Source: Stegostoma tigrinum
Taxonomy: Eukaryota
Length of the DNA: 64,000 nucleotides
Direction of reading: 5' to 3'
NCBI RefSeq assembly: GCF_030684315.1
Contig: NC_081363.1
Span: forward strand, 51,526,312 to 51,590,311
Every line of letters begins with the position of its first letter. Position 1 is the first letter of the stretch. The translations under genes were made by a program, and so were the position numbers. Shown in pieces: positions 9,236 to 64,000 of this stretch. A model generated the notes under the pieces. That model ran no database searches. It had not been told where the DNA came from and saw only the letters and a list, made by a program, of their open reading frames with translations.

Positions 9236-12052
9236 GATAACAAAGTGTGGAACTGGATGAACACAGCAGGCCAAGCAGCATCTCAGAAGCACAAAAGCTG
9301 ACGTTTCGGGCCGAGACCCTTCATCAGAGAGGGGGATGGGGAGAGGGTTCTGGAATAAATAGGGAGAGAGGGGGAGGCGGACCGAAGATGGAGAGAAAAG
9401 AAGATAGGTGGAGAGGACAGTATAGGTGGGGAGGTGGGGAGGGTATAGGTCAGTCCAGGGAAGATGGACAGGTCAAGGAGGTGGGATGAGGTTAGTAGGT
9501 AGGAAATGGAGGTGCGGCTTGGGGTGGGAGGAAGGGATGAGTGAGAGGAAGGACAGGTTGGGGAAGCAGAGACAGGCTGGGCTGGTTTTGGGATGCAGTG
9601 GGGGGCTGCCTTCGCCTCCACGCTTACTTCTTTCACCGGGAACCTAACTCTCCCTCCACTGACCCCTTCACCCTCCTCCAACACAAGTCCTCTTCCTGGA
9701 CACCACCCCCAGGCCTCCTACCCTCCCTTGACCTCTTCATCTCTAACTGCCGTCGAGACATCAACCACCTCAACCTCTCCACCCTTCTCACCCACTCCAA
9801 CCTCTCCCCCGCAGAACGGGCAGTCCTCTGCTCCCTCAGCTCCAACCCCAACCTCGCCATCAAACCCACAGACAAGGGTGGCACAGTGGTAATATGGTGC
9901 ACTGACCTCTACATTGCCGAGACCGAATGCCAACTCTCCGACACCACCTCCTACCGCCCACTTGATCATGACCCCACCTCCGAGCACCAAACCATCATCT
10001 CCAACACCATTCATGACCTCATCACCACAGGGGACCTCCCACCCACAGCCTCCAACCTCATTGTTCCCCAACCCCGCATGGCCCGTTTCTATCTCCTTCC
10101 CAAAATTCACAAACCTGCCTGCCCTGGTCGACCCATTGTCTCAGTCTGTTCCTGCCCTAACGAACTCATCTCCACCTATCTGGACTCCATTTTCTCCCCT
10201 TTGGTCCAGGAACTCCCCACCTACGTCCGTGACACCACCCACGCCCTCCACCTCCTTCAGGACTTCCAATTCCCCGGCTCCCAACACCTCATTTTCACCA
10301 TGGACATCCAGTCCCTATACACCTGTATTCCTCATGCAGATGGCCTCAAGGTCCTCCGCTTCTTCCTGTCCCGCGGGCCTGACCAATCATCCTCCACCAA
10401 CACCCTCATCCGCCTAGTTGAACTCGTCCTCACCCTCAACAACTTCTTTTTCGATTCCTCCCTTTTCCTATAGACAAAAGGGGTGGCCATGGGTACACAC
10501 ATGGGCCCAAGCTATGCCTGCATCTTTGTAGGTTACACGGAACAGTCCCTCTTCTGCACCTACACTGGCCCCAAACCCCACCTCTTCCTCCGCTACATTG
10601 ATGACTGTATCGGCGCCACTTTGTGCTCCCAAGAAGAACTCGAAAGCTTCATCCACTTCAGCAACTCCTTCCACCCCAATCTCAAGTTCACCTGGACCAT
10701 CTCCAACACATCCCTCACCTTCCTGGACCTCTCTGTCTCCATCTCAGGCAACCACCTAGAAACCGATGTCCATTTCAAGCTCACCGACTCCCACAGCTAC
10801 CTGGAATACACCTCCTCCAACCCTCCTTCCTGCAAAAATTCCATCCCCTATTCCCAATTCCTTCACCTCCACCGCATCTGCTCCCAGGATGAGGCATTCC
10901 ACTCTCGTACATCCCAGATGTCCTCTTTCTTCAAGGTCCGCAACTTCCCCCCCGCATTGGTTAAGAACACCTTCGACCATGTCTCCCGCATTTCCCGCAC
11001 CTCATCCCTCACACCCCACCCCCGCAATAACCCCCTCATCCTCACATACCACCCCACCAACCTCCGGATATAACGCATCATCCTCCGACACTTCGGTCAT
11101 CTACAATCCTAACCGACCACTAAAGACATTTTTCCATCCCCTCCCCTGTCTGCTTTCCGGAGACACCACTCTCTCCGCGACTCCCTTGCACGCTCCACGC
11201 TCCCCTCCAACCCCACCACACCCGGCACCTTCCCCTGCAACCGCAGGAAGTGCTACACTTGCCCTCACACCTCTTCCCTCACCCACATCTCAGGCCCCAA
11301 GATGACTTTCCACATCACGCAGATGTTCACCTGCACATCTGCCAATGTGGTATACTGCATCCGCTGTACCCGGTGTGGCTTCCTCTACATTGGGGAAACC
11401 AAGCGGCGGCTTGGGGACCGCTTTGCAGAACACCTCCATTTGGTTCGCAACAAACAACTGCACCTCCCAGTCGTGAACCATTTTAATTCCCCCTCCCAAT
11501 CCTTAGACGACATGACCATCCTGGGCCTCCTGCAGTGCCACAATGATGCCACCCGAAGGTTGCAGGAACAGCGACTGATATTCCACTTGGGAACCCTGCA
11601 GCCCAATGGTCTCAATGTGGACTTCACAAGCTTCAAAATCTCCCCTTCTCCCCACTGCATCCCTAAACCAGCCCAGCTCGTCCCCGCCTCCCTAACCTGT
11701 TCTTCCTCTCACCTATCCCTTCCTCCCAACTCAAGCCGCACCTCTATTTCCTACCTACTAACCTCATCCCACCCCCTTGACTTGTCTGTCCTCCCCTGAC
11801 TGACCTATCCCCTCCTTCTCTCCCCACCTATACTCTCCTCTCCACTTATCTTCTCGTCTATCCATCTTTGGTCTGCCTGCCCCTTTCTCCCTATTTATTT
11901 CAGAATCCTCTTCCCATCCCCCTTTTCTGATGAAGGGTCTAGGCCCGAAATGTCAGCTTTTGTGCTCCTAAGATGCTGCTTGGCCTGCTGTGTTCATCTA
12001 GCTCCACACTTTGTTATCTCAGATTCTTCAGCATCTGCAGTTCCCATTATCA
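9236..12052 (+). mobile_element. 5'-truncated, inactivated Penelope-like retroelement (Neptune-like) with inverted 5' pLTR copy
   Basis: RT motifs (FYLLPKIHKP, GRPIVS, AMGTHMGPSYA, FLRYIDD), Cys linker GTFPCNRRKCYTC, GIY-YIG endonuclease VVYCIRC...LYIGET...RFAEH; in-frame stops at 10471 and 11071; about 9236-9603 is the reverse complement of about 11650-12018, plus a ~34 nt unpaired 3' tail. Confidence 0.93.
11927..11957 (+). ncRNA. Minimal hammerhead ribozyme motif in PLE pLTR (mirror copy 9297-9327 on minus)
   Basis: CUGAUGA-A-GGGU(CUAG)GCCC-GAAA-(U/C)GUC^AG; hammerheads in pLTRs are established for Penelope-like elements. Confidence 0.7.
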
Positions 12053-22296: not shown

Positions 22297-24340
22297 ACCA
22301 TAAGACCATAAGACATAGGAGTGGAAGTAAGGCCATTCGGCCCATCGAGTCCACTCCATCATTTAAATCATGGCTGATGGGCATTTCAACTCCACTCCCC
22401 TGCACTCTCCCCGTAGCCCTTGATTCCTTCTGAGATCAAGAATTTGTCAATTTCTGCCTTGAAGACATCCAACGTCCCGGCCTCCACTGCACTCCATGGC
22501 AATGAATTCTACAAGCCCACCACTCTCTGGCTGAAGAAATGTCATCTCATTTCAGTTTTAAATTTCCCCCCTCTAATTTTAATGCTGTGCCCATGGGTCC
22601 TAGTCTCCCCGCCTAACGGAAACAACTTCCCAGCATCCACCCCGTCTAAGCCATACATTATCTTGTAGGTTTCTATTAGATCTCCCCTCAACCTTCTAAA
22701 CTCTAATGAGTACAATCACAGGATCCTTAGCCGTTCATCGTACGTTAAACCTACCATTCCAGGGATCATCCGTGTGAATCTCCACTGGACACGCTCCAGG
22801 GCTAGTATGTCCTTCCTGAGGTGTGGGGCCCAAAATTGGACACAGTATTCCAAATGGGGCCTAACTAGCGCTTTGTAAAGTCTCAGAAGCACATCACTGC
22901 TTTTATATTTCAACCCTCTTGAGATAAACGACAACATTACATTCACTTTCTTAATCACGGACTCTACCTGCAAGTTAACTTTTAGAGAATCCTGGACCGA
23001 CATTCCCAGATCCCTTTGTACTTCTGCTTTACAAATTTTCTCACCATTTAGAAAATAGTCCATGCCTGTATTCTTTTTTCCAAAGTGCAAAACCTCACAT
23101 TTACTCACATTGAATTGCATCAGCCATTTCCTGGACCACTCTCCGAAACTGTCTAAATCTTTCTGCAGCTTTCCCACCTCCTCAGTACTACCTGCCTGTC
23201 CACCTATCTTCGTATCATTGGCAAACTTCACCAGAATGCCCCCAGTCCCTTCATCCAGATCATTAATATATAAAGTGAACAGCTGCGGCCCCAACACTGA
23301 ACCCTGCAGGACACTACTCGTCACCGGTTACCATTCCAAAAAAGAGCCTTTTATCCCAACTCTTTGCCTTCTGTCAGACAGCCAATCCTCAATCCAAGCC
23401 AGTAGCTCACCTCGAACACTATGGGCCCTCACCTTGTTCAGCAGCCTCCCGTGAGGCACCGTATCAAAGGCCTTTTGGAAGTGTAGATAGATAACATCTA
23501 CTGGGTTTCCCTGGTCTAACATACTTGTTACCTCTTCAAAGAATTCTAACAGGTTTGTCAGGCACAACCTCCCCTTACTAAATCCATGCTGATTTGTTCT
23601 AATCTGGCCCTGCACTTCCAGGAATTTAGAAATCTCATCCTTGACAATGGATTTTAGAATTTTACCAACTACTGAGGTTAGGCTAATCGGCCTATAATTT
23701 TCCATCTTTTGCCTTGATCCTTTCTTAAACATGGGGGTTACAACAGCAATTTTCCGATCAACTGGGACTTTCCCTGACTTCAGTGACTTTTGAAAGATCA
23801 CAGCCAAAGCCTCTACTATTTCCTCAGCCACCTCCCTCAGAACTCTAGGATGTAGCCCAACGGGACCAGGAGATTTATCAATCTTTAGACCTTTTAGCTT
23901 TTCTAGCACTTTCTCTTTTGTAATGCCTCCATACTCAACTCTGCCCCCTGGCTCTCCCTAATTATTGACACGCTACTCATGTCTTCCACTGTGAAGACTG
24001 ATGCAAAGTACTTATTAAGTTCTTCAGCTATTTCCTTATCTCCCATCACTAGACTTCCAGCATCAATTTGGAGCGGCCCAATATCTACTTTTGCCTCTCA
24101 TTTGTTTCTTATGTATTGAAAGAAGCTTTTACTGTCATTTCTAATATTTCTAGCTAGCCTACCTTCATATTTGATCCTCTCCTTCCTTATTGCTCTCTTT
24201 GTTATCCTCTGTTTGTTTTTGTAGCCTTCTCAATCTTCTGATTTCCCAGTGCTCTTGGCCACTTTATAGGCTGTCTCTTTTTCTTTGATATATTTTCTGA
24301 CTTCCTTTGTCAGCCATGGCTGTCTAATCCCACCCCAGAT
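22297..24340 (-). mobile_element. Young 5'-truncated CR1 LINE (RT + 3' UTR)
   Basis: KSPGP, NYRPISLTSVVGK, QHGF, QGSVLGPQLF, KFANDTK, RPHLEYCVQFW; short TAAGACCA-repeat tail. Confidence 0.95.
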
Positions 24341-39476: not shown

Positions 39477-39602
39477 TTATCGGAGCAGAAATCCATCTTT
39501 CAGATCATCATCATCTTCCACATAAAAACTTGCTGTTCCTGTGTAATGTGCTTGTCCTGATATTTCCACTATAACAGCTTTAAAATCGCCACACTTAGCT
39601 TC
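39477..39602 (-). CDS. L3HYPDH: L3HYPDH exon 5 (terminal)
   Basis: CCTAG acceptor; EAKCGDFKAVIVEISGQAHYTGTASFYVEDDDDLKDGFLLR*; five exons total 1038 nt = 345 aa + stop. Confidence 0.93.
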   Translation of the reverse strand, partial: EAKCGDFKAVIVEISGQAHYTGTASFYVEDDDDLKDGFLLR

Positions 39603-41663
39603 CTAGGTGGGGATAGAGGGGAGAGAAAAAAAAACTATTCCTATCAGTCTTTTTTATAATATTGCTCATGGTTGGCAGGTAATACACAGCAGTTACCATA
39701 TAAATAGAACAGGACAGGTTTTGCTGTATTTTGTGTTATACACAAGTATTTAATGTCATGTGGACTCTAATTCTCGTAACTATCAAAAAACCTTTGGTTT
39801 TGACCAGCTTTTAATATTTCTTAATAGTTACTTGTCCAAATTAATTCAAAATGCTTTGTTTTTGAAAGAAATAATGGTAGTTTTGTGTTTCTGAATGGAA
39901 TAGTCTACTTACAATTCTTTAGCTTTTTAATATATAATTCAAGGGAGGTGGACTAAGTCAGAGCTTATTTCCCACTCCTAGCTGCCCTGATGAAAATGCC
40001 TTCTTGAACACCCCTGGGGCACAGGAAAGGGAGTTCCAGGATTTTCAGTTAGTGACAATGAAGGACCATTGATATAGTTCCAAGTCAGTGGTGAGTAACT
40101 TTAGAGGGCAACTTGCAGATGGTGGTGCTGCCATTCACCTGCATTTCTTGAGCTTCTTATTTGCAGAGGTTGCACAGTTGGAAGGTGCTTTCGAAGTAAT
40201 TTTGAATTACTGTAGTGCATCTTGTAGATGATATACCCTGCTACCAGTGTACATCAGTGGTGAATGGGTTGGTTGGGCACCATTTGTTAACGCCTCTCTC
40301 CTCAGGTGTTATCCCTCTTTTTTTAATCTTCCATCAGCACCTCTTTCCTGAAAAAAACCCCCCTTTAATCCTTTGTTCTGCCATCCATCCCCAAACCCCC
40401 TTCTTCAGGCCCTTTTTGTTTCCATTCAGAAATGCTTTCATGCCCAACGGAAGTTTTTTTTTATTTCTCCCATCAGCTGTGTTATTTTTAACCTGTATCC
40501 AGTACTACTAAATGCCCGTGTTTTCCAGTTAAATTGCCACATTAATATGGAAAGCCTATCAAGGCCAGTGCAATAATCCAGAAGTGAGGGAAAGGAGGGA
40601 TGGCAAAATCAAAATGGAATTGCACATATATTGAACCAATTTCAATAAAGAGGGATATTGGAGACACAAATTCTGCTGCATCCCCATTGCAGTGCCCTGA
40701 CCAATGAGAATCAATAAGCCTGAATGTTAAGATTGACAGCTGTTTCTGCATTTCCTTGCCAATTGTGGCACAAACAATCTCCAACCTCTCTCATGCTGTA
40801 TAAAATGTGTCTTTTTTATCCCCCAGTTTGTTTCTTGTGGGCTAATTCTGATTAGTGTATAATGGAATGCTTCAAGAAATGAACTTTCTCTCCTGTCCTA
40901 AGGCTATGCTATGTTATTCTAATAATGTAGACAGAATCTTACAGTGAAGCACACCATACGCAATAAATTAATAGGAAAAAGAATTTTCCTTTTTTTTAAA
41001 TCCAAATGTATTTCTTGGTTATATATTAGGAATCAACTTAGACAGAATATCACCGTTAAGTGGTGGAGTGGAAAGACATGTTTTTAAAACTGGAGCTCAG
41101 TACAAGGGTGACTAAATGCTGATTAAATTTGAAGGGTTTTTTTTTGAAAAGCAGATATTTGAATTCTCTCTCAACTAATATTCCAAAAGTTAATACTGAT
41201 AATGATTCTGGGTAGTGCAATGGAAAAGATTCAACCTGCTTGCAGAGCACACAGAGGACATGGAAGGAGACTAGCTCTGGGTGCCACACAGATGGAAACT
41301 GCATTTTGTTTAATACCTGAAAAATTGGATCAGTCTGCAAAATGTTTGTATACTTCCTTTACTGTTGATAGTTGAAACCATAGATTTTGAGGAACGTTTA
41401 AAATAATTTCAGAAATCAGAAGGATTAATTAGAAAAATTCACAAGCAATTAAAAATGGAATTTCCAATAAACATTATTTTCTGAAGCTCAAGTTAATTTC
41501 TACATTTTGTCGTGAATACCATATTGCTATAATTTCCAATTACAGTTGGTATAGATTATTGGCTTTTCATAATGATAGAAAAGGTAAGTAAAGCTAAGCA
41601 TTATGGCTTGGGTCAAAATAGCTGCATTGGATTTCAGAAAGCAACATTATTTATGTTAATTAC

Positions 41664-41801
41664 CTCTACAGCTTTTGCCGTGAACAGTGAGCTTGTTGGA
41701 CCGCTCTGAAATGTCCTCGTTTGATTCAGAGGTATCAATCCTTTGTGGTACTGCAGTGAAACACGAGCTGTCACACCTGAGCCACAAGGACTTCTGTCAA
41801 C
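41664..41801 (-). CDS. L3HYPDH: L3HYPDH exon 4 (second catalytic residue, here Cys264)
   Basis: TAATAG acceptor, GTAATT donor, 138 nt; VDRSPCGSGVTARVSLQYHKGLIPLNQTRTFQSGPTSSLFTAKAVE. Confidence 0.93.
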
Positions 41802-41861
41802 CTATTAAAGATACACAAAAAATATTTGAACTGTTTTTTTATTAATGAATCTTATTTGATC

Positions 41862-42045
41862 GGGGATTGGTTAGCTCAGTTGATTGGACAGCTGGGTTTG
41901 CTATGCAGAGTGATGCCAACAGCATGGGTTCAATTCCTGTACTGGCTAAGGTTACCATGAAGAATTCTTCTTCGCCCACCCCTTCCCTTGCCTTAGGTTA
42001 AACCACTACTGAGAGAGCAGTCCTATGGTCCAGTAAGATTGCAAC
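41862..42045 (+). mobile_element. tRNA-headed SINE in L3HYPDH intron 3
   Basis: TAGCTCAGTTG A box and GGGTTCAATTCC B box followed by a non-tRNA body. Confidence 0.6.
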
Positions 42046-42984: not shown

Positions 42985-43107
42985 CTGAGCATCTGCAAAA
43001 ACACAAATATTTGCCGTTGGCTCTTCTGAAAATGCGTCTTTTCCATCAGTTAATATAGTCCCGTACAAGAAAGCAAGTTCTTCACTGTCAGGGTGGTGGA
43101 GCTTAAC
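42985..43107 (-). CDS. L3HYPDH: L3HYPDH exon 3
   Basis: TTACAG acceptor, GTAGGT donor, 123 nt; VKLHHPDSEELAFLYGTILTDGKDAFSEEPTANICVFADAQ. Confidence 0.93.
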
Positions 43108-45298: not shown

Positions 45299-45468
45299 AT
45301 GTGTTTTCACAGTATTAGTGACAGCTACTGCTGCATCTACAAGATCCCGGGTCCTGGAGGAACAAACGTCTAAACCAAAATGATCTGCGCTCACAAATGC
45401 ATAAAAAGCACCTCCATATGCAATATCCACTGCAATCTTCCCATATCCTTGTACATCAACAGTAACAT
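45299..45468 (-). CDS. L3HYPDH: L3HYPDH exon 2
   Basis: TTTCAG acceptor, GTATGT donor, 170 nt; DVTVDVQGYGKIAVDIAYGGAFYAFV...VKTH in frame with exon 1. Confidence 0.93.
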
Positions 45469-49576: not shown

Positions 49577-49857
49577 GAATCACAGAATCCCTACAGTGTG
49601 GAAACAGGCCCCATGGCCCAGCAAGTCCACACCAACTCTCAGGCCATCCCACCCAGACCCATCCCCATATAACCCACCTAATCTACATATCCCTGAACAC
49701 TATGGGCAATTTAGCATGTCCAATCCACCTGGCCTGCACATCTTTGGACTGTGGGAGGGAACCCACGCAGACACGGAGAATGTGCAAACTCCACACAGAC
49801 AGTAGCCAGAGGGTGGAATCGAACGCTGGTCACTGGTGCGGTGAGGCAGCAGTGCTG
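49577..49857 (-). mobile_element. HE1-like V-SINE nested in CR1
   Basis: CCTGCACATCTTTGGACTGTGGGAGG and GGAATCGAAC on plus are the V-domain and B box on minus. Confidence 0.87.
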
Positions 49858-50661
49858 CCCCAACTGAAAGAGTTCAGAAAAGGTTTAAGAATATTGCCAG
49901 GCTTGGAGGATTTGAGCTATAGAGAAAGGCTGAATAAAGTAGAGCTAATTTCCCTGGATTGCTGGAGGCTGAAGGGTAACCTTGTAGAGGTTTATAAAAT
50001 CATAAGGTGCATGGATAGGGTAAATAGACGAGGTCTTTTTCCCAGGCTGGTAGAGGTGAAAATTAGAAGGCATAGGTTTAAAGTGAGGGGATTTAAAAAG
50101 GATCTAAGAAACAACTTCTTCATGCAGAGGGTGCTGCACGTACAGAATGAGTTGCTGGAGGAATTGGTGCGTTTACAACATTTAAGAGGCGCCTAGATGG
50201 ACATGTCATCAATACAAGTCGAGGGGGATTCGGGCTACATGCTGATAAATGGGACTACATTAATTTAGGATATCTGCTTTGCTTCGACGAGTTGGACCAA
50301 CGCGTTTGCTTCAGTGGTGTCTATCCCTGTGACTCTATAACAGTGCCAACTGGACGATTTCGTTAAAACGTTGAAGGTACGTTGCACGTTTGGAGGGACT
50401 GACAAGAGTTCAAGGTGTTTTGTACTGAAGGTCGTTCACCCGAAACGTCAAAACTTGTTCTTTCCGCACGAATACTGTTAGATCAGCTGAGTGTTCTCGG
50501 CATTTTTCTTTGTTTAAAACTATTTCAGAGTTGTACCAGAGTTTTTGTTTTGTTTAAATGTTAAACAAATGGATTTAATGTGGGACTTGCAAACCGGACT
50601 GACAGTGTAACTAAAGGTTAAAGTGCTGTACCTCAGTGCCCGGCTCCCATCTCTCTCTCAC

Positions 50662-51142
50662 CTGTAGCGAAGACGAAGGCGGGGACGCTGTGGAAGCGGA
50701 CCCGCCCGCTCTTGCCCTTGTGGTACTGGACGAAAGCCCGGACTAGGCCGCAGGGACAGTGGATATTGACCTGTGTTTCGGGGGAGCTGGGCTCTTTGAT
50801 CAGCCCGTAGTCCAGGGCGTAGCGGCCGAGGGCCAGCACGGCATGCCCGCACATGGTGCTGTAGCCCTGGTTGTGCATGAAGAGGACTCCGAGGTGAGCG
50901 TCCGGCCGCTCGGAGCCCACCAGCAGCGCCCCGTACATGTCCCTGTGGCCGCGGGGCTCGAAGATCAGCCTCCGCCGCAGGCCGTCCAGCCGCTCCCGCA
51001 CGTAGCGCCGTTTGCTGAGGAGGTCGCCCGCCGGCACCGGGGGGAAGCCGCCGGTGACGATCCGGAGCGGCTCACCACCCGTGTGCATATCCAGTACCGA
51101 AAGGACCGATCCTACCCCCGGGGGCCGTCTCGGCAGCTCCAT
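50662..51142 (-). CDS. L3HYPDH: L3HYPDH (proline racemase family) exon 1
   Basis: DMHTGGEPLRI, EPRGHRDMYG, YSTMCGH (catalytic Cys98, codon 50849-50851); donor G|GTGAG, phase 1; 481 nt; CpG-rich. Confidence 0.95.
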
Positions 51143-51263
51143 CTCGACCGAGAGCAGTGGGGGCGGGGGTCAAAGCCAGTCCCCGCCCTAACCGGAAGTG
51201 AACTGGGAAGGAAGCGGAAGTGTCGTATGATTGGAATGGCGGCGGTTGTTGTTGGATGTGAGC
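51143..51263. promoter_or_regulatory. Compact bidirectional promoter shared by L3HYPDH and JKAMP
   Basis: 121 bp between divergent ATGs; GC boxes 51159-51169 and 51181-51188; ETS/GABP motifs CCGGAAGTG 51192-51200 and GCGGAAGTG 51214-51222; ATTGG 51230-51234; YY1-like AATGGCGGC 51235-51243; abuts CpG-rich L3HYPDH exon 1. Confidence 0.85.
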
Positions 51264-56968: not shown

Positions 56969-57123
56969 GTATGCCCAAGAGGTGAAAGAACAGATAATCT
57001 GAAGATTTGTCGTAAATGTGAGGATTCACCAGAACTCTATGACTGGTTGTACCTGGGCTTCATGGCAATGCTGCCTCTGGTTTTGCATTGGTTCTTTATC
57101 GAATGGTATTCAGGGAAAAAAAG
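56969..57123 (+). CDS. JKAMP: JKAMP exon 3
   Basis: VCPRGERTDNLKICRKCEDSPELYDWLYLGFMAMLPLVLHWFFIEWYSGKK; canonical AG/GT, 155 nt. Confidence 0.95.
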
Positions 57124-57849
57124 GTTAGTGTTATTTCAGAACAGTAAACATAAATGGTGGTGTTACTGGGTACTGACTTTTAGATGTGGAGATGTCACGG
57201 TAGGTTAAACATTGAGTTTTCTTTGGTAGGAAATGGTTTGGTAGAGACTGAGGGTGTGAAAGTCATCTTTGGTTTCTGCAGGAGGCCCACGTGAAACACA
57301 ACTGAATATTAGTTCTGTTTATAGTTGACAAAAGACACATTTTCTCAAAATTCTTTGTCTTGCACACATGGGGGTGATTTGTAAGAAACACCAATGTAAA
57401 GGTTAAACAACAGTTTATACTCTTAGGGTGCTAATCAATTAATGAGTCGATTTTGATGGGGGGAGGCATTGCTGTGCAGAATTATGTTAAAAAAATGACT
57501 CTCGGCTTTGTTTAAATTTTGAATCATGCAGCTTAACTCTGGTGTAGGTCTTGCCCTGAGAAATGAACCAAAGAATTGTTTTCATTTGGCTTTGCTGAAG
57601 CAACAGCAGCCATATGTGTGCATGTTCTTTCTGTCTACAGAGAGCAAGGCCCTGTGTATAAAGATATGCATCTTCCAAAATGCACCCATTGCAAGCTGAC
57701 TAACAATTGTAAATTAGTTGTCATCTTAGCATATTCAGGATTATTTATCAAATGCTGTCCAAATCTTGATTCACATTTCACATTGGACACTGTGATTTGA
57801 ATTTCTCAAGCACAGGCAGTTGTAAAAAAAAACTGATGGGACATGGTGG

Positions 57850-59780
57850 TTGTTGTTGGTTAGCCAGCATTTATTGCCTGAGAAGGTGGAAATGAGCTGC
57901 TTTCTTGAATAGCTGCAGCCCAGGTGCTTTAGGTTGACCCTCAGCGAAGGAATTCTAGGATTTTGACCCAGTCACAATGAATGAACAGTTTTTATAATTT
58001 CCAGGTCAGGATGATGAGTGAACTTGCAGGAGGTGGTGTTGCCATGTATCTGCTGCCCTTGTCCTTCTGAATGGAATTGGTTGTTGGTTTGGAAGGTGCA
58101 GTCTAAGGATCTTTAAATTTCTGCAGTGTATCTAGTAGATAGTACACACTTCTGCTACTGACAACTGCTGGTGGAGGGAATGTATGCTTTTAGATGTGGG
58201 GCCAGTCAAGTGTGTTGCTTTGTCCTGGATGGTGCCAAGCTTCTTGACTGTTGCTGAAGCTATACTCATTCAGACAAGTGGGGAGTATTCCATTGCACTG
58301 CTGATGTGTGCCATGCAGATGGTGGTAAGAATTTGGGGAGCCAGGTGTTGAGTTACCACAGTCTTTGAATCCTTTGACCTGCTCTTGTTGCTGCTTTGTT
58401 TATTCTATTGAGTTCAGGTCAATGATAACCTTCCAGGATATTGATAGTGGGTGATTCAGTGATCGTAACACCTTCAAAGGGGCGTGTCATTGCCTGTCAT
58501 TTGTGAGCTGCAAATGTTACTTGTCAGCCCAAGCTTAGATATTGTTCAGATCTCATTGCATTTGAACACAGGCTGCTTCAGTATATGAGGAGTCGCAAAT
58601 GATGCAGAATTTTGTGCGATCAATGGTGAACATCCTCACTTCTGACCTGATGATGGAGTGAAGATCATTGATGAAGTAGCTGAAGGTGGTAGGGCTTAGG
58701 ATATTTTCCCTGAGGAACTCCTGCAGAGATGTCCTAGAGCTGAGATGACTGACCTCCAATAACCACAACTGTCTTCCTATGTCCAGGTATGGTGTGAGCC
58801 AGCAGAGAGCTTGCCCTTTGGTACCCATTGATTCCAGTTTTTCTTACAGAGCACACTCGGTTGAATGCAGCCTTGATGTTAAGGGGTATCACTATCACCT
58901 CACCTCTGCAGTTCAACTCATTTTTTGTCCATGTTTGCACCAATGCTGTAATGCGATCAGGAGCTGAGTGTTCAGGTGGAACACAAACTGGGCGTCTGCA
59001 AGCAAGTGCTACCTAATAGCGCTATGATGACAGCTTCACTTTACTGATAACTGAAAGTGGACGATGGAGGTGGTAATTGGCCAGGTTAGATTTGGCCTGC
59101 TTTTTTGTGTATGGGACATACTTGATCAATGTTTCACATTGTTGGGTAGATGCTTATGTTGTAAATGCGGTGCTGCAGCTTGGCTAGGAGCATGGCTTTC
59201 AGTATTACTGTTGTCAGAAGATGTAGATGTTGCACTGTCCAGTACTTCCATCCATTTCTTGACATTGTGGAGTGAATTCAATTGGCTGAAGACTGGTATC
59301 TTTGATGCTGAGGATCACTGGAGCATGCTGAACAGGATCATTCATTTGGCACATCTGGTTGCAGATTGCCCAAAATGCTTCAACCTTATCTTTTGTCCTG
59401 ATGTGTTGGGCTCTTCCGTTGTTGAGGATGGAGATATTTGTGGAGCCTCTTCCTCCAGTGAGGCGTTTAATTGTCCACCACTGTTCAAGACTGGTCATGG
59501 CAGGACTGCTGAGCTTAGATCTCATTGCCAAGTTGTTGTGGAATCGCTTATGTTGTATGGCATGCAAGTTGTTCTGTTTTGTAACTTCAGGTTGACACCT
59601 GATGTTTAAATATGTCTGGTGTTATACCTACTGTGCCCTCCTGCACTCTCCATTGAGTCAGGGTTGAACTACTGCCTTGATAGTAATTGTTCTGTTGGGG
59701 ACATGCCGGGTCATGAGGTTCCAGATTGTACTGAAGTACGATGCTGCTGTTGATGACTGACAGTGCACAATGGATGCCTA
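57850..59780 (-). mobile_element. Old LINE fragment (family of 16610-18115) in JKAMP intron 3
   Basis: FSYFINDLHSIIRSEVRMF, WWTIKRLTGGRGSTNI. Confidence 0.8.
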
Positions 59781-59939
59781 GTCAAATGAAGGCTCCAAAA
59801 ATCAAAAGTAACCTTGAGAAAGCCCTTGAGTAAAAGCATTTTGATCCCTGAAAGGATTAGCCTATGAGGAAATACCGAATAAATTGCTATGACTTGTCAC
59901 TTACCAGGTTGAAAGTTCAGAGGGGATTTGAAAGAGCAG

Positions 59940-60720
59940 ATAAAAGCAAACATGAGAATAACCAGCAGTTAACATAAAAGGGAATTCAAAATCTTTGACA
60001 GGACTATGAATAGCAAAAACATATACCATAAGGAGTGGGTCTTATTAAGAACTATACATTGGATTTACCTATGGTAGCTGTGGTAGTGGTTGAGATAATA
60101 GTACTTTGCATTCATCATTACCAAGATGCTAACTATGTCATAATCAAAAAGAAAATGCTTAAATACTTCTAAAGTTTAACGTTGTCAAGGAAGTGTGTTG
60201 GACAGCTATAATGTAGAAGTTGATAAGACACCAGGACCAGATGAGATGCAACAAGGATGCCATAGACACTCGGAGTGAAATTACAAAAGCACTGACAATA
60301 ATTTTACAGTCAGCAACCCAAGGGGAATGGTGAAGAATTGCAAATGCTTCACCTTTGTTCAAAAATTTATGTAAAGATAAACCCTGAACTGTAGCCAATT
60401 TAACCTAAATAGTAGGTGAGCTTTTAGAAGTTATAATTTGGGACAGAATTCAAAGCGACATCGGGAAATACATTTTCATTAAGGAAGGGGAGCAGAGATT
60501 TCTTGAGAGGACACACTGCCAAACTAAATTGTTTTGAGATGTTTTGATGTAGGATTAAAGAAGATTTTTCAGTAGAAGTGCTGTAAATGGACTACTAGAA
60601 GATATTTGCTAAAGTGGTGAACAACAGACATTTGAATAAAGTTATAGCTCAAGAATTAAAATGAAGAGTGGTAACATGGGATGTAAAATTTTGTCCTGTT
60701 ACTGAGATAGAGTAGTGTGA
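59940..60720 (+). mobile_element. Highly degraded CR1 ORF2 fragment
   Basis: DKTPGPDEM and ANASPLFK-type remnants. Confidence 0.6.
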
Positions 60721-61064
60721 GCTTCTAATTGCCTACCACTTCAACTTACTATATGATCATAAGATATAGGAGCATGTCAGAATGGGCACTTGTCTCATTT
60801 TCTCTCTGAGCATTGTCTTGTTTTACCTTGGGTTGCTCCTCTCGCACTCTCTATCTATTATTCCATGATCTAGAGCCAGCTCAGTCACTTAAAAAAGCCC
60901 ATTTCTAATTGTTCCTTTGCATTCCCTCAATTTCTTTAAAATTTCCAGGGCCTAATGAGAGCAGCTTCTATTTGCATTTGCTTACACCATGAAGTAAAAT
61001 CTTTCGGCAGTATTTGAAAGATCTAAACTTCACCTTAACAAATTCACTAATGTTTTTCCTATAG

Positions 61065-61271
61065 TTCTAGTGCACTTTTTCAGCATGTGACAGCATTATT
61101 GGAATGCACTGCTGCAGCCATTGTTACGTTACTGGTGAATGATCCAATTGGGCGACTGAAAATCCGGTCCTGCCGAGTGAAAATGCTTTCAGACTGGTAT
61201 ACAATGCTTTATAATCCAAGTCCTGATTACATCAACACATTGCACTGCACACAGGAAGCTGTGTTCCCTTT
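61065..61271 (+). CDS. JKAMP: JKAMP exon 4
   Basis: SSALFQHVTALLECTAAAIVTLLVNDPIG...MLSDWYTMLYNPSPDY...EAVFP; GTAAGT donor; 207 nt. Confidence 0.95.
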
Positions 61272-62822
61272 GTAAGTATATGATTTTCAATAAATAGTAA
61301 CTTTAATTTACTCAATGGTTATGTTAATTTGCAAATTGCCATACATTTCAGACAGGTCAGAGCTCCATCTAGTGTACATTTAAAAGCCATAGTGGAGTGG
61401 TAATCTATTATTTGTGTTTAATAATATTCAGATAGTGGGCATTAACTAGGACTTCACTTCAGCACTGACCAATGAAGGCTGTTATGTCACAATTGTAGTG
61501 TCCCTACCTTTGCGTCAGGAGGCCTGGGTTCACCTGCTCCAGAGGTGTGTAATATCATTCCTGAAGAGGTTGACTTAAAAAAAAAAGTACTCTTGAGCAC
61601 CCACCATGGAATCATGCCATTACATGACCAAACAGGTGGATTAAACAGTGGTCCAGATAAGAGTTGTACCAGGTGCACTACTTTTAGATGCGGAGATATC
61701 TGCTATGAGACAGGGGTATTGATTAACTTCTCATTATAGTTCACTATGAGGGAATTGTCTGAATGGAAGTACAGTTCTGCACTTCTTAAGGTACCTTGAT
61801 TTGAATCTTGTGTCAGAACTGCGGAGCTCTAGTTTGTTTGTTAAAAAAAAAGGGTAGAGTGGCAATCTGCACGAGATCATTAATCCTCATAAAATCCTGC
61901 CTTTTTTTGTATGTAAAAAGCCACATCAGAATCTTGTGAGAGAGTTTAGTGCCTATACCTCTGAGCCAGAAGGCCAAGATTCAGGTCCCACTCCAGGATT
62001 GATGGCTGTGGTGTCATATCCAGATTGTTTTTTTAATAGTATGTTTTTCATTCACTTAGTAAAATGGTTACACTTGTAAAACATTAAAATATTCTAGTCT
62101 GTTATGCGAGCGACTGGATTTCAGTGCAGGTTTATTTTGAAAAAATTATCCAGATGTGAAACATTTCACCACTTAAATTACTGTCTTTTGCCCTTGACTG
62201 AAGAAAAAACAGGCTGTTTCAACAGATGATATGTTACTTGGTTTCCTCACCTCCCTACATAGTTTTCTTAAAAATAAATGAAAAATCATTTGCAGTGGTA
62301 ACGTCCCTACCTCTACACAAGGTGTCTGGATTCAAATCGCATCTGTTCCAGAGGTGTGTAAGAACATAAGAACATCTCTGAACAAGTTGATTAGAAAATA
62401 TTTATGAAGAGATACTCTCCTTCAAGGGTAGGTCTTTATTTAAAAAGCTAATTAGTTTATTTGTTTTCTTTTCCAAAAATATTAAAAGCTACTTATTAAA
62501 TCTCTATAGAGTGGGGGAGTTAGGAGCTTGTAGTGCTAACTGTGTAAATAATTGAGAACAAAGATCATTCCTGTACTATGCTTCACCAACTGCTTTGCTG
62601 AAATGGAACAGTAAATGACATATGTTGCCACTTGTATTAACAAAGAAGAATATACTGTTTTTTGAGCTTATGCTATGCCTTTGACAAGCTGATGGCTAAA
62701 AGTAGCGAGTGAATACACACGTTAAGTTGGAAACCAGTGTTTTGAAAATGGGAATCTCAATTTCACTGCTGTTCTTTTTTAATGGTGTTTTCTTTTGATG
62801 GTCAGTTTTTTTTCATTTTCAG

Positions 62823-63004
62823 ATACACTATTATCTTCATATACTATGCCTTTTGTCTGGTTTTTATGATGTTGCTTCGTCCACTCCTGGTTAAAAAGAT
62901 TGCCTGTGGTCTTGGAAAATCTGATCGATTTAAAAGCATTTATGCAGCCCTATACTTCTTCCCAATTCTGACAGTACTTCAGGCAGTTGGTGGAGGCCTG
63001 CTTT
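62823..63004 (+). CDS. JKAMP: JKAMP exon 5 (gene continues beyond window)
   Basis: YTIIFIYYAFCLVFMMLLRPLLVKKIACGLGKSDRFKSIYAALYFFPILTVLQAVGGGLL; GTAAGT donor. Confidence 0.95.
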
Positions 63005-64000
63005 GTAAGTACATTTTCATGTCTAGATGTTACCTGTGGATTTAGCTACAATTCAAAGCTTTTCTCACAAGGTTTTGCCACAACCTATTTGATTTCAGTG
63101 ACTATCCAGCAGAATTTCGTTTTTAAAGCTTTTTACAACATGTTTTGAGATTTACAGTATTTAATGAGCATCACTGATCTGTAAAGGAGTTTTGTTTGCT
63201 ATAATCAATTTTACGTTCTTTCATTACTGATTTCATATTACAAAAGACATTCTGTAAGTCTATAACCAGAGTATGTTATCCCTTCTCCTTATCTTTAACT
63301 GTTGCTTGGTGTTCATTGTGAATAATCGTGCCATGCTTTTTCTTTTCTTCTGTTGGTTTCACATATTGTCTAACATTGTACCATTGCAATGCTTTAATTC
63401 CTATTTATCTGAATACAACTAGCATCTGGCCAGCAAGGATTTAACCCTGGTTCATTACTTTTTAGTATCTATCTCTTAAATGACATCATCTATTAATATG
63501 GGAATCAGTGTCCACTGGTATGCTGTTACTTCCCACTTTGACTTTTCTGCACCTCATTTGATTTCTTGACTGTATTGTGTTGCCAACTGTTTGTTCGTCT
63601 AAAGGCCTAGCTTCTTCAAACTCAACTTTGGAAGGACTGAAGTCATTGTCTTTCATCCTTGCCATAAAATATACTCCTTTACCACTGCTCAAACTGTTCG
63701 ATATTGGCTTTGAGAATTTTCACTTTTATTTTTACAGTACCTCCCGTGTGCAAATGCATGGGTTAGTGTTCTCTGCAAAAGTTTCCTGACTTTGAGCTAG
63801 AGTTAGAGATATTGAAGAGTGTTTCAGGACTTAATATTTCCTGGGTAACTGTCATGTTAAGACAGGAAATGACCTATAATTCCTGGGTAATGAATAGCTG
63901 CTTAGTAGTACAGAACTTAAACTGTATAAAAAGTTTTGTCTTGGATTCATCAGAACTTGAAACATTATTTACACAGTATGAGAAGAAGGTGCTGTTTGGT

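What the first reader, a model, noticed from the sequence alone, without database searches (positions are those of the whole stretch)
41784..41786. L3HYPDH ortholog has a Cys/Cys active site: possible natural vertebrate 3-hydroxyproline epimerase
Seen: exon 4 reads GAC AGA AGT CCT TGT GGC TCA GGT = DRSPCGSG (Cys264), and exon 1 keeps MCGH (Cys98); the gene is intact and syntenic with GPR135 and JKAMP. Known: human L3HYPDH (C14orf149) has Cys104/Thr273 (DRSPTGSG) and dehydrates trans-3-hydroxy-L-proline; proline racemases and hydroxyproline epimerases use Cys/Cys; Visser et al. 2012 (JBC) reported that the Thr-to-Cys mutant gains 3-hydroxyproline epimerase activity. Thr (ACN) to TGT needs at least two base changes, so a single miscall is unlikely. 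Inference: this lineage may epimerise trans-3-hydroxy-L-proline to cis-3-hydroxy-D-proline, a different route of collagen-derived hydroxyproline turnover or D-imino acid production. I cannot tell whether this is already reported.
Basis: partly seen in the sequence, partly recalled or inferred. Interest (0 to 1): 0.85.

Follow-up and report, generated by a model that had tools for sequence, protein, structure and literature searches.

The report
Shark enzyme likely flips hydroxyproline handedness
All 22 shark, ray and chimaera species examined carry cysteine where bony vertebrates almost always carry threonine in the active site of the hydroxyproline-degrading enzyme L3HYPDH, the swap reported to turn the human enzyme into an epimerase, so cartilaginous fishes likely convert collagen-derived 3-hydroxyproline to a D-form instead of only destroying it.

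Summary
The intact five-exon L3HYPDH gene encodes Cys98/Cys264, matching human Cys104/Thr273. The codon is unchanged in contigs of three runs, one carrying the exon 3-4 junction. No Thr-type paralogue was found in the genome. Cys is fixed in 22 of 22 chondrichthyan species, against 1 of 102 bony-vertebrate rows; hagfish and most invertebrate outgroups have Thr. Of 153 columns conserved in bony vertebrates, 264 is the only one fixed for another residue: a natural T273C on an unchanged dehydratase pocket. The tree puts the gain on the chondrichthyan stem; molluscan Cys versions arose separately (AU p=0.0007). Citing papers report that human T273C is a 3-hydroxyproline epimerase; the original paper was not readable here. 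Best reading: a trans-3-hydroxy-L-proline 2-epimerase (0.55), mislabelled 'dehydratase' in databases; main rival: mixed epimerase/dehydratase (0.27). No activity was tested. My paper searches found no report of it, and the scan's earlier notes had none. New variant of a known kind; one recombinant assay decides it.

The parts
50662..51142 (-). L3HYPDH exon 1 (ATG at 51142; codons 1-160 plus one base)
   Evidence: E 3e-67 to human 7QPO
50849..50851 (-). Cys98 codon in MCGH; equals human Cys104, the catalytic base
   Evidence: invariant in 22/22 chondrichthyan, 102/102 bony and 9/9 outgroup rows
50933..50935 (-). Tyr70, pocket site 1 (human Tyr76; Phe in proline racemases)
50867..50869 (-). Gln92, second chondrichthyan-typical change near the catalytic motif (Glu in most others; human residue 98)
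   Evidence: Q in 22/22 chondrichthyans, 3/102 bony rows
45299..45468 (-). L3HYPDH exon 2 (includes Tyr183, human Tyr192)
42985..43107 (-). L3HYPDH exon 3 (Tyr232-Gly233, pocket site 4; Phe254, site 5)
41664..41801 (-). L3HYPDH exon 4 (DRSPCGSG)
41784..41786 (-). Cys264 codon TGT; equals human Thr273 and the second catalytic Cys of proline racemases
39477..39602 (-). L3HYPDH exon 5 with stop codon
27320..28660 (-). Downstream neighbour: single-exon rhodopsin-type GPCR, most like GPR135 (synteny marker)
56969..63006 (+). Upstream, divergent neighbour: JKAMP, two exons checked (gene ends not mapped)

Best explanation
This is the single, intact L3HYPDH ortholog of a shark, in which the second active-site residue is Cys instead of Thr throughout the cartilaginous fishes sampled, and it likely works as a cofactor-free trans-3-hydroxy-L-proline 2-epimerase rather than a dehydratase. 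Shown: Cys98/Cys264 dyad, unchanged dehydratase-type pocket (Tyr70, Tyr183, Tyr232-Gly233, Phe254, Ser266), vertical descent, fixation in 22 species. Inferred mechanism: Cys98 thiolate removes the alpha-proton of trans-3-hydroxy-L-proline as in the human enzyme; with a thiol on the opposite face, Cys264 reprotonates the carbanion faster than the 3-hydroxyl leaves, giving cis-3-hydroxy-D-proline reversibly. The pocket predicts 3-hydroxyproline as the preferred substrate, with at most weak activity on proline. Speculative downstream step: the D-product is excreted or oxidised by D-amino acid oxidase, so 3-hydroxyproline would no longer be recycled to L-proline through pyrroline-2-carboxylate.
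For: Cys264 aligns with human Thr273 and with the catalytic Cys of four solved racemases. Papers classify Cys-Cys as racemase/epimerase and Cys-Thr as dehydratase, and report human T273C as a 3-hydroxyproline epimerase (PMC3958920; PMC10875296; PMC4364671; mechanism in PMC4113996). Position 264 is the only one of 153 bony-conserved columns fixed for another residue in chondrichthyans, so the shark enzyme is close to the single lab mutant. Cys in 22/22 species from chimaera to rays; branches no longer than in bony vertebrates (mean 0.26 vs 0.31 from the gnathostome node). Thr and Cys codons differ by two bases with Ser as the one-step intermediate (genetic code), yet Ser occurs in 0 of 449 motif-bearing proteins fetched (T 315, C 126, G 6, A 2; 59 of 508 lacked the motif; redundant set), which fits two selected states. 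Model: pLDDT 94, best fold matches human and Thermococcus dehydratases. No second copy found to keep the dehydratase job.
Against: No assay. Visser 2012 not readable, so the rate of the T273C epimerase and whether it lost dehydratase activity are unverified here (I recall a database note saying it lost it). The dyad rule has exceptions: Ser/Cys PA1255 both epimerises and slowly dehydrates 3-hydroxyproline, a Ser/Cys enzyme is a 4-Hyp epimerase. Even slow irreversible dehydration would drain a reversible epimerase. Invariance among sharks is weak on its own: 204 of 332 columns are invariant there. The site changes at least 11 times on a 79-row tree, both ways, even within Haliotis, which may mean both residues serve one job. 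The pyrroline-2-carboxylate reductase (mu-crystallin) still has at least one exon in the genome, uninformative since it has other roles. No physiological use of cis-3-hydroxy-D-proline in animals turned up (2 papers, listing only for one).
Confidence: 0.55

Rival explanations
1. Mixed enzyme: it epimerises 3-hydroxyproline but still eliminates water fast enough that the net job in the animal remains conversion to pyrroline-2-carboxylate, now also from the D-epimer. The Thr/Cys swap would then tune, not switch, the pathway.
For: The base (Cys98) and all dehydratase pocket residues are kept; the elimination needs only that base and its conjugate acid (PMC4113996). A natural bifunctional epimerase/dehydratase exists (PA1255). 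Frequent two-way toggling (11 changes; Haliotis asinina Cys vs two other Haliotis Thr; a 90% cluster holding both states). No other copy was found to supply dehydratase; mu-crystallin exon present.
Against: The known bifunctional case is Ser/Cys and its dehydration is slow (kcat/Km 1.23 per mM per min). Papers describe the swap as converting one activity to the other. Ser, the intermediate a tolerant site should show, was not seen (0 of 449).
Confidence: 0.27
2. The physiological substrate is proline (or 4-hydroxyproline, pipecolate): the enzyme is a vertebrate proline racemase that makes D-proline or salvages dietary and microbial D-proline.
For: Cys/Cys with MCGH and DRSPCG is the racemase signature. 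A Cys/Cys archaeal enzyme acts on proline, 4-Hyp and 3-Hyp alike (PMC4364671). Free proline is far more abundant than 3-Hyp (established knowledge), so weak side activity could dominate flux.
Against: Site 1 is Tyr70, not the Phe said to mark proline racemases; site 4 is Gly233, not the His of 4-Hyp epimerases. No pocket residue changed with the Cys. Best family score is the dehydratase model (346 bits vs 275 racemase, 223 epimerase; all under their bacterial cut-offs).
Confidence: 0.11
3. The protein is kept for a non-catalytic or redox role; Cys264 pairs with or shields Cys98 and turnover is negligible.
For: Human Cys104 forms a regulatory disulphide with Cys137, and Cys131 is kept in sharks. 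The human protein has a reported antiviral role whose link to catalysis is unknown.
Against: Every catalytic and pocket residue is conserved, and the swap is to exactly the residue used by active racemases.
Confidence: 0.06
4. Sequencing or assembly error, or a decaying pseudogene.
For: None found.
Against: Same codon in contigs of three runs including a spliced one; Cys in 21 other species; open frame with GT-AG introns; no long branch.
Confidence: 0.01

Closest known systems
[quoted passage not shown]
   Same: Ortholog by tree and neighbours; 69% identity in the fold match; same pocket residues, Asp-Arg salt bridge pair and Cys131/Cys137.
   Different: Cys264 in place of the defining Thr273; Gln92 in place of Glu98.
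Engineered human T273C mutant (Visser et al. 2012, known here only through citing papers)
   Same: Same Cys/Cys dyad on the same pocket; reported 3-hydroxyproline epimerase.
   Different: Here natural, fixed across a vertebrate class, with about 30% other sequence differences from human; activity untested.
Proline racemases (Trypanosoma cruzi 1W61, Acetoanaerobium 7PB3; EC 5.1.1.4) and the broad T. litoralis racemase/epimerase (6J7C)
   Same: MCGH and DRSPCG motifs, two Cys, fold, Phe at site 5 as in proline racemases.
   Different: Only 31-34% identity; Tyr at site 1 instead of Phe, Tyr-Gly at site 4; SPCGS rather than SPCGT; separate branch of the tree.
4-hydroxyproline 2-epimerases (EC 5.1.1.8; 2AZP, 4J9X) and bifunctional 3-Hyp epimerase/dehydratase PA1255
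   Same: Two-base inversion at C2 of a hydroxyproline; PA1255 makes the same predicted product.
   Different: Under 31% identity; no His at site 4, no Ser/Val at site 1; PA1255 is Ser/Cys.

Membership tests
Proline racemase superfamily (PF05544) | Full-length Pfam match above cut-off | tested here: met
   358.6 bits vs cut-off 27, residues 16-342
Proline racemase superfamily (PF05544) | Two-domain fold of the family | tested here: met
   Model pLDDT 94; TM 0.88-0.94 to 7QPO and the best 6R76 chains, about 0.9 to 1W61
L3HYPDH orthologs (gene lineage) | Place in the vertebrate gene tree and neighbours GPR135 and JKAMP | tested here: met
   Sister to bony vertebrates, hagfish outside, SH-aLRT 98-99. 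That these are the human neighbours is recalled.
[quoted passage not shown] | Thr at the second catalytic position | tested here: not met
   Cys264
[quoted passage not shown] | Pocket residues Tyr76, Met103, Tyr192, Tyr241, Ser275, Asp74-Arg270 (human numbers) | tested here: met
   Tyr70, Met97, Tyr183, Tyr232, Ser266, Asp68, Arg261, each 22/22 in chondrichthyans
[quoted passage not shown] | Forms pyrroline-2-carboxylate from trans-3-hydroxy-L-proline | not testable with these tools
   needs an assay
Proline racemase (ProR) | Cys/Cys dyad in MCGH and DRSPCG | tested here: met
Proline racemase (ProR) | Phe at substrate site 1 | tested here: not met
   Tyr70 aligns with Phe62 of T. litoralis ProR
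Proline racemase (ProR) | Racemises proline | not testable with these tools
   needs an assay
4-hydroxyproline 2-epimerase (HypE) | His at site 4 and Ser/Val at site 1 | tested here: not met
   Gly233 and Tyr70
3-hydroxyproline 2-epimerase (works like human T273C) | Cys/Cys dyad on a type I dehydratase pocket | tested here: met
3-hydroxyproline 2-epimerase (works like human T273C) | Interconverts trans-3-hydroxy-L- and cis-3-hydroxy-D-proline | not testable with these tools
   needs chiral LC-MS or NMR
Proline racemase superfamily (PF05544) | Homodimer | not tested
   no complex job sent; it would pass by likeness to solved structures

The most novel reading that the evidence does not exclude
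Cartilaginous fishes have, since their origin, carried a dedicated cofactor-free imino-acid epimerase that makes a free D-imino acid (cis-3-hydroxy-D-proline, perhaps also D-proline) with its own role, such as a signal, solute or peroxide-yielding oxidase substrate; and one Thr/Cys site acts as a reaction switch that sharks, molluscs, a hydrozoan and some fungi have thrown independently. This would add a second kind of free D-amino-acid-making enzyme to vertebrates beside the PLP-dependent serine racemase.
Probability: 0.2. Interest if true: 0.85.

Novelty: new variant of a known kind. Interest (0 to 1): 0.63.

Why it matters
A 2025 review names serine racemase as the best-characterised mammalian amino-acid racemase and credits D-proline to gut bacteria (PMC12247034 passages). 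A natural 3-hydroxyproline epimerase in a whole vertebrate class would be a new route to a free D-imino acid and a different fate for collagen IV breakdown products. It would also mean that the database label 'dehydratase' is wrong for all sharks, rays, chimaeras and most bivalves sampled. The repeated natural Thr/Cys pairs (shark vs bony fish, Haliotis species, one percomorph-like fish) give ready-made tests of how one residue decides elimination versus inversion, and of what L3HYPDH is for in animals, which is still poorly known.

Tried and rejected
Visser 2012 was not held under DOI, PMC id or PubMed id; its alignment, tree and supplements may already list Cys-type animal sequences, which bears on novelty. 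Paper searches that found no report of the shark variant: L3HYPDH+epimerase (2 papers), proline racemase+shark (0), 3-hydroxyproline+shark (6, none relevant by listing), C14orf149+racemase (4), hydroxyproline epimerase/T273C/vertebrate (1 listed). One search was swamped by shark papers and is uninformative; two searches gave no data on D-proline or D-hydroxyproline in sharks by their listings. The library lacks most subscription journals. Tables 1-2 of PMC4113996 were not held as text, so I could not check for Cys/Cys dehydratases there. No RNA holder was listed for the stretch; the other splice junctions were not checked against runs; tissue of expression is unknown. Codon usage at the site in other species and the organism of the Cys-type fish sequence P0081 remain open, as no DNA for them was obtained. 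Lamprey, amphioxus, tunicate, echinoderm, reptile and named mammal orthologs (other than human 7QPO) did not appear by name in the three capped searches (best 120 each), so they are unsampled. Rejected: horizontal transfer of a bacterial racemase (tree follows the species tree; five exons); one shared origin of shark and mollusc Cys versions (AU p=0.0007, quick tree, LG+G4, 53 rows; group named after seeing the first tree); a hidden Thr paralogue (only the five exons plus one chance hit at E 0.46; the search scores only top candidates); loss of mu-crystallin or D-amino acid oxidase as a pathway clue (one mu-crystallin exon; two oxidase-like exons on contig 34, one closest to DAO and one slightly closer to D-aspartate oxidase, with D-aspartate oxidase itself on contig 4; whole genes not assembled). 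The scan's earlier notes held nothing on this.

Full report
Observation. The minus strand holds DRSPCGSG with TGT at 41786-41784 and MCGH from 50854. Five exons with GT-AG introns give a 345-aa protein with Cys98 and Cys264. It is identical to RefSeq-derived P0130, labelled a dehydratase from zebra shark. Against solved structures, the best match is human L3HYPDH (7QPO, E 4e-168); Cys98 falls on Cys104 and Cys264 on Thr273, and on the second Cys of four racemases. A GPR135-like GPCR lies downstream and JKAMP upstream on the other strand.

Is the codon real? Of four runs laid on 41500-41950, three cover the codon and none lists another letter there. X1 may be the source sample and X2 is shallow, but X5, from another study, has a contig matching 41694-41803 exactly and running on into the end of exon 3, the spliced form (read). 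The kind of X5 is not on record. Searches of the own genome with exon 1 and with the full protein found only this gene.

Distribution. Among the 120 best relatives of exon 1, all 11 chondrichthyan clusters have Cys; of the other 109, 102 have Thr, 1 Cys (unnamed P0081, nested among percomorph fishes), 1 Ala and 5 lack the motif. Cluster members widened this to 22 species, the window's own included: sharks of five orders, rays, skates and the chimaera Callorhinchus, 22 of 22 Cys. The comparison set of 102 bony-vertebrate rows (91 that passed a motif and length filter, which dropped the Ala row, plus 11 added; some species appear twice, some rows are unnamed) has 101 Thr. Hagfish, two hemichordates, a brachiopod, a nemertean, a priapulid, Hydra and a sponge have Thr. 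Cys recurs in 9 of 9 named bivalve genera, in Patella, in Haliotis asinina (H. cracherodii, H. rufescens and Batillaria have Thr), in Hydractinia and in two fungal genera; an unnamed cluster next to Mercenaria has Thr.

History. With the trait column masked, the 79-row tree follows the species tree for vertebrates: chondrichthyans (support 99) are sister to bony vertebrates (node 98), hagfish outside. Thr is therefore the simplest ancestral state and Cys a gain on the chondrichthyan stem; this is parsimony with one cyclostome, lamprey unsampled. The state changes at least 11 times on that tree. Holding sharks and molluscs together is rejected (p 0.0007). Chondrichthyan branches are not lengthened (0.26 vs 0.31).

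What changed with the Cys? Almost nothing. Of 153 columns at least 95% conserved in bony rows, 151 keep the same majority residue in chondrichthyans; 209 is variable and 264 alone is fixed for another residue. The residues named in the human structure paper (PMC9309405, section 2.3) are all kept. The specificity sites of PMC4364671 (passages and discussion) read Tyr70, Gly233 and Phe254, as in dehydratases, not Phe/Leu/Trp or Phe (racemases) or Ser-Val/His (4-Hyp epimerases) (mapped by hand). One companion change, Glu to Gln at 92, sits at a residue said to stabilise the open form (the paper writes Asp98; the 7QPO sequence shows Glu); it also occurs in three Thr-type bony rows, so it is not tied to Cys. 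The model is confident and matches the dehydratase structures best; it cannot tell the reaction.

How it likely works. In this family a Cys base removes the alpha-proton; a second Cys on the opposite face returns one and inverts the centre, whereas with Thr there the 3-hydroxyl is eliminated (PMC4113996 passages; PMC4364671). Two papers state that human T273C becomes a 3-hydroxyproline epimerase (PMC3958920 discussion; PMC10875296 passages), and a review describes the same swap in reverse (PMC8142540 passages). The shark enzyme is that mutant made by nature, so I predict trans-3-hydroxy-L-proline to cis-3-hydroxy-D-proline (0.55). Ser, the one-step intermediate between the codons, was seen in 0 of 449 motif-bearing proteins, which suits two selected states. 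Downstream fate is speculation: oxidase-like exons are present, as is a mu-crystallin exon.

Against. Nothing was assayed. I could not read Visser 2012; that T273C lost dehydratase activity and racemises proline weakly is my recall only. The dyad rule leaks: PA1255 (Ser/Cys) does both reactions (PMC5144071 passages and supplement passages). An irreversible side reaction can outweigh a reversible one in the cell, so a mixed enzyme (0.27) is a serious rival, and the frequent toggling, even within one genus, fits it. Invariance among sharks is weak alone, since 204 of 332 columns are invariant. Motif rules do not separate racemases from epimerases well (PMC4417235 passages), so a proline racemase role stays open (0.11).

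Known and new. It is an L3HYPDH ortholog and a PF05544 member but fails the Thr test for Cys-Thr dehydratases and the site tests for ProR and HypE; it works, by prediction, like the engineered T273C epimerase. My searches found no report of the natural variant, within a library that lacks the key paper and most subscription journals. The scan's notes had nothing on it. Verdict: real, class-wide, a new variant of a known kind, and decided by one simple assay. Interest 0.63.

Noticed in passing
P0081 (unnamed Logan protein): A percomorph-like L3HYPDH, 92% identical to a cichlid protein, also has Cys at the site: a possible separate gain in a bony fish, from a single contig.
   Followed up: partly
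P0408 vs P0411/P0472; P0506 vs P0366; P0205 vs P0315: Thr/Cys differs between close relatives: Haliotis species, Hydractinia vs Hydra, and members of one unnamed 90% cluster. Whether these are orthologs or paralogs was not resolved.
   Followed up: partly
P0339, P0403, P0412, P0426, P0458-P0465: Several bivalves appear to have more than one Cys-type copy (Solemya neighbours by locus tag, two in Mercenaria, several in Mytilus).
   Followed up: no
P0054, P0152: One Sinocyclocheilus anshuiensis L3HYPDH model has Ala at the site and lacks MCGH, perhaps a decaying duplicate or a gene-model error.
   Followed up: no
window 9541-11799 (+): Broken reverse-transcriptase-like frames followed by a weak GIY-YIG match (E 4e-4, under cut-off): looks like a Penelope-type retroelement remnant (label recalled).
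   Followed up: partly
window 22716-23957 (-) and 49579-50196 (+): LINE reverse transcriptase fragments (RVT_1 hits for the first; no Pfam hit for the second, in intron 1).
   Followed up: partly
window 41862-41950: A very high-copy short repeat starts 60 bases into intron 3, next to exon 4 (thousands of contigs laid).
   Followed up: no
window 51142-51200: L3HYPDH starts in a GC-rich stretch with JKAMP on the opposite strand, consistent with a shared two-way promoter; JKAMP's first exon was not mapped.
   Followed up: no
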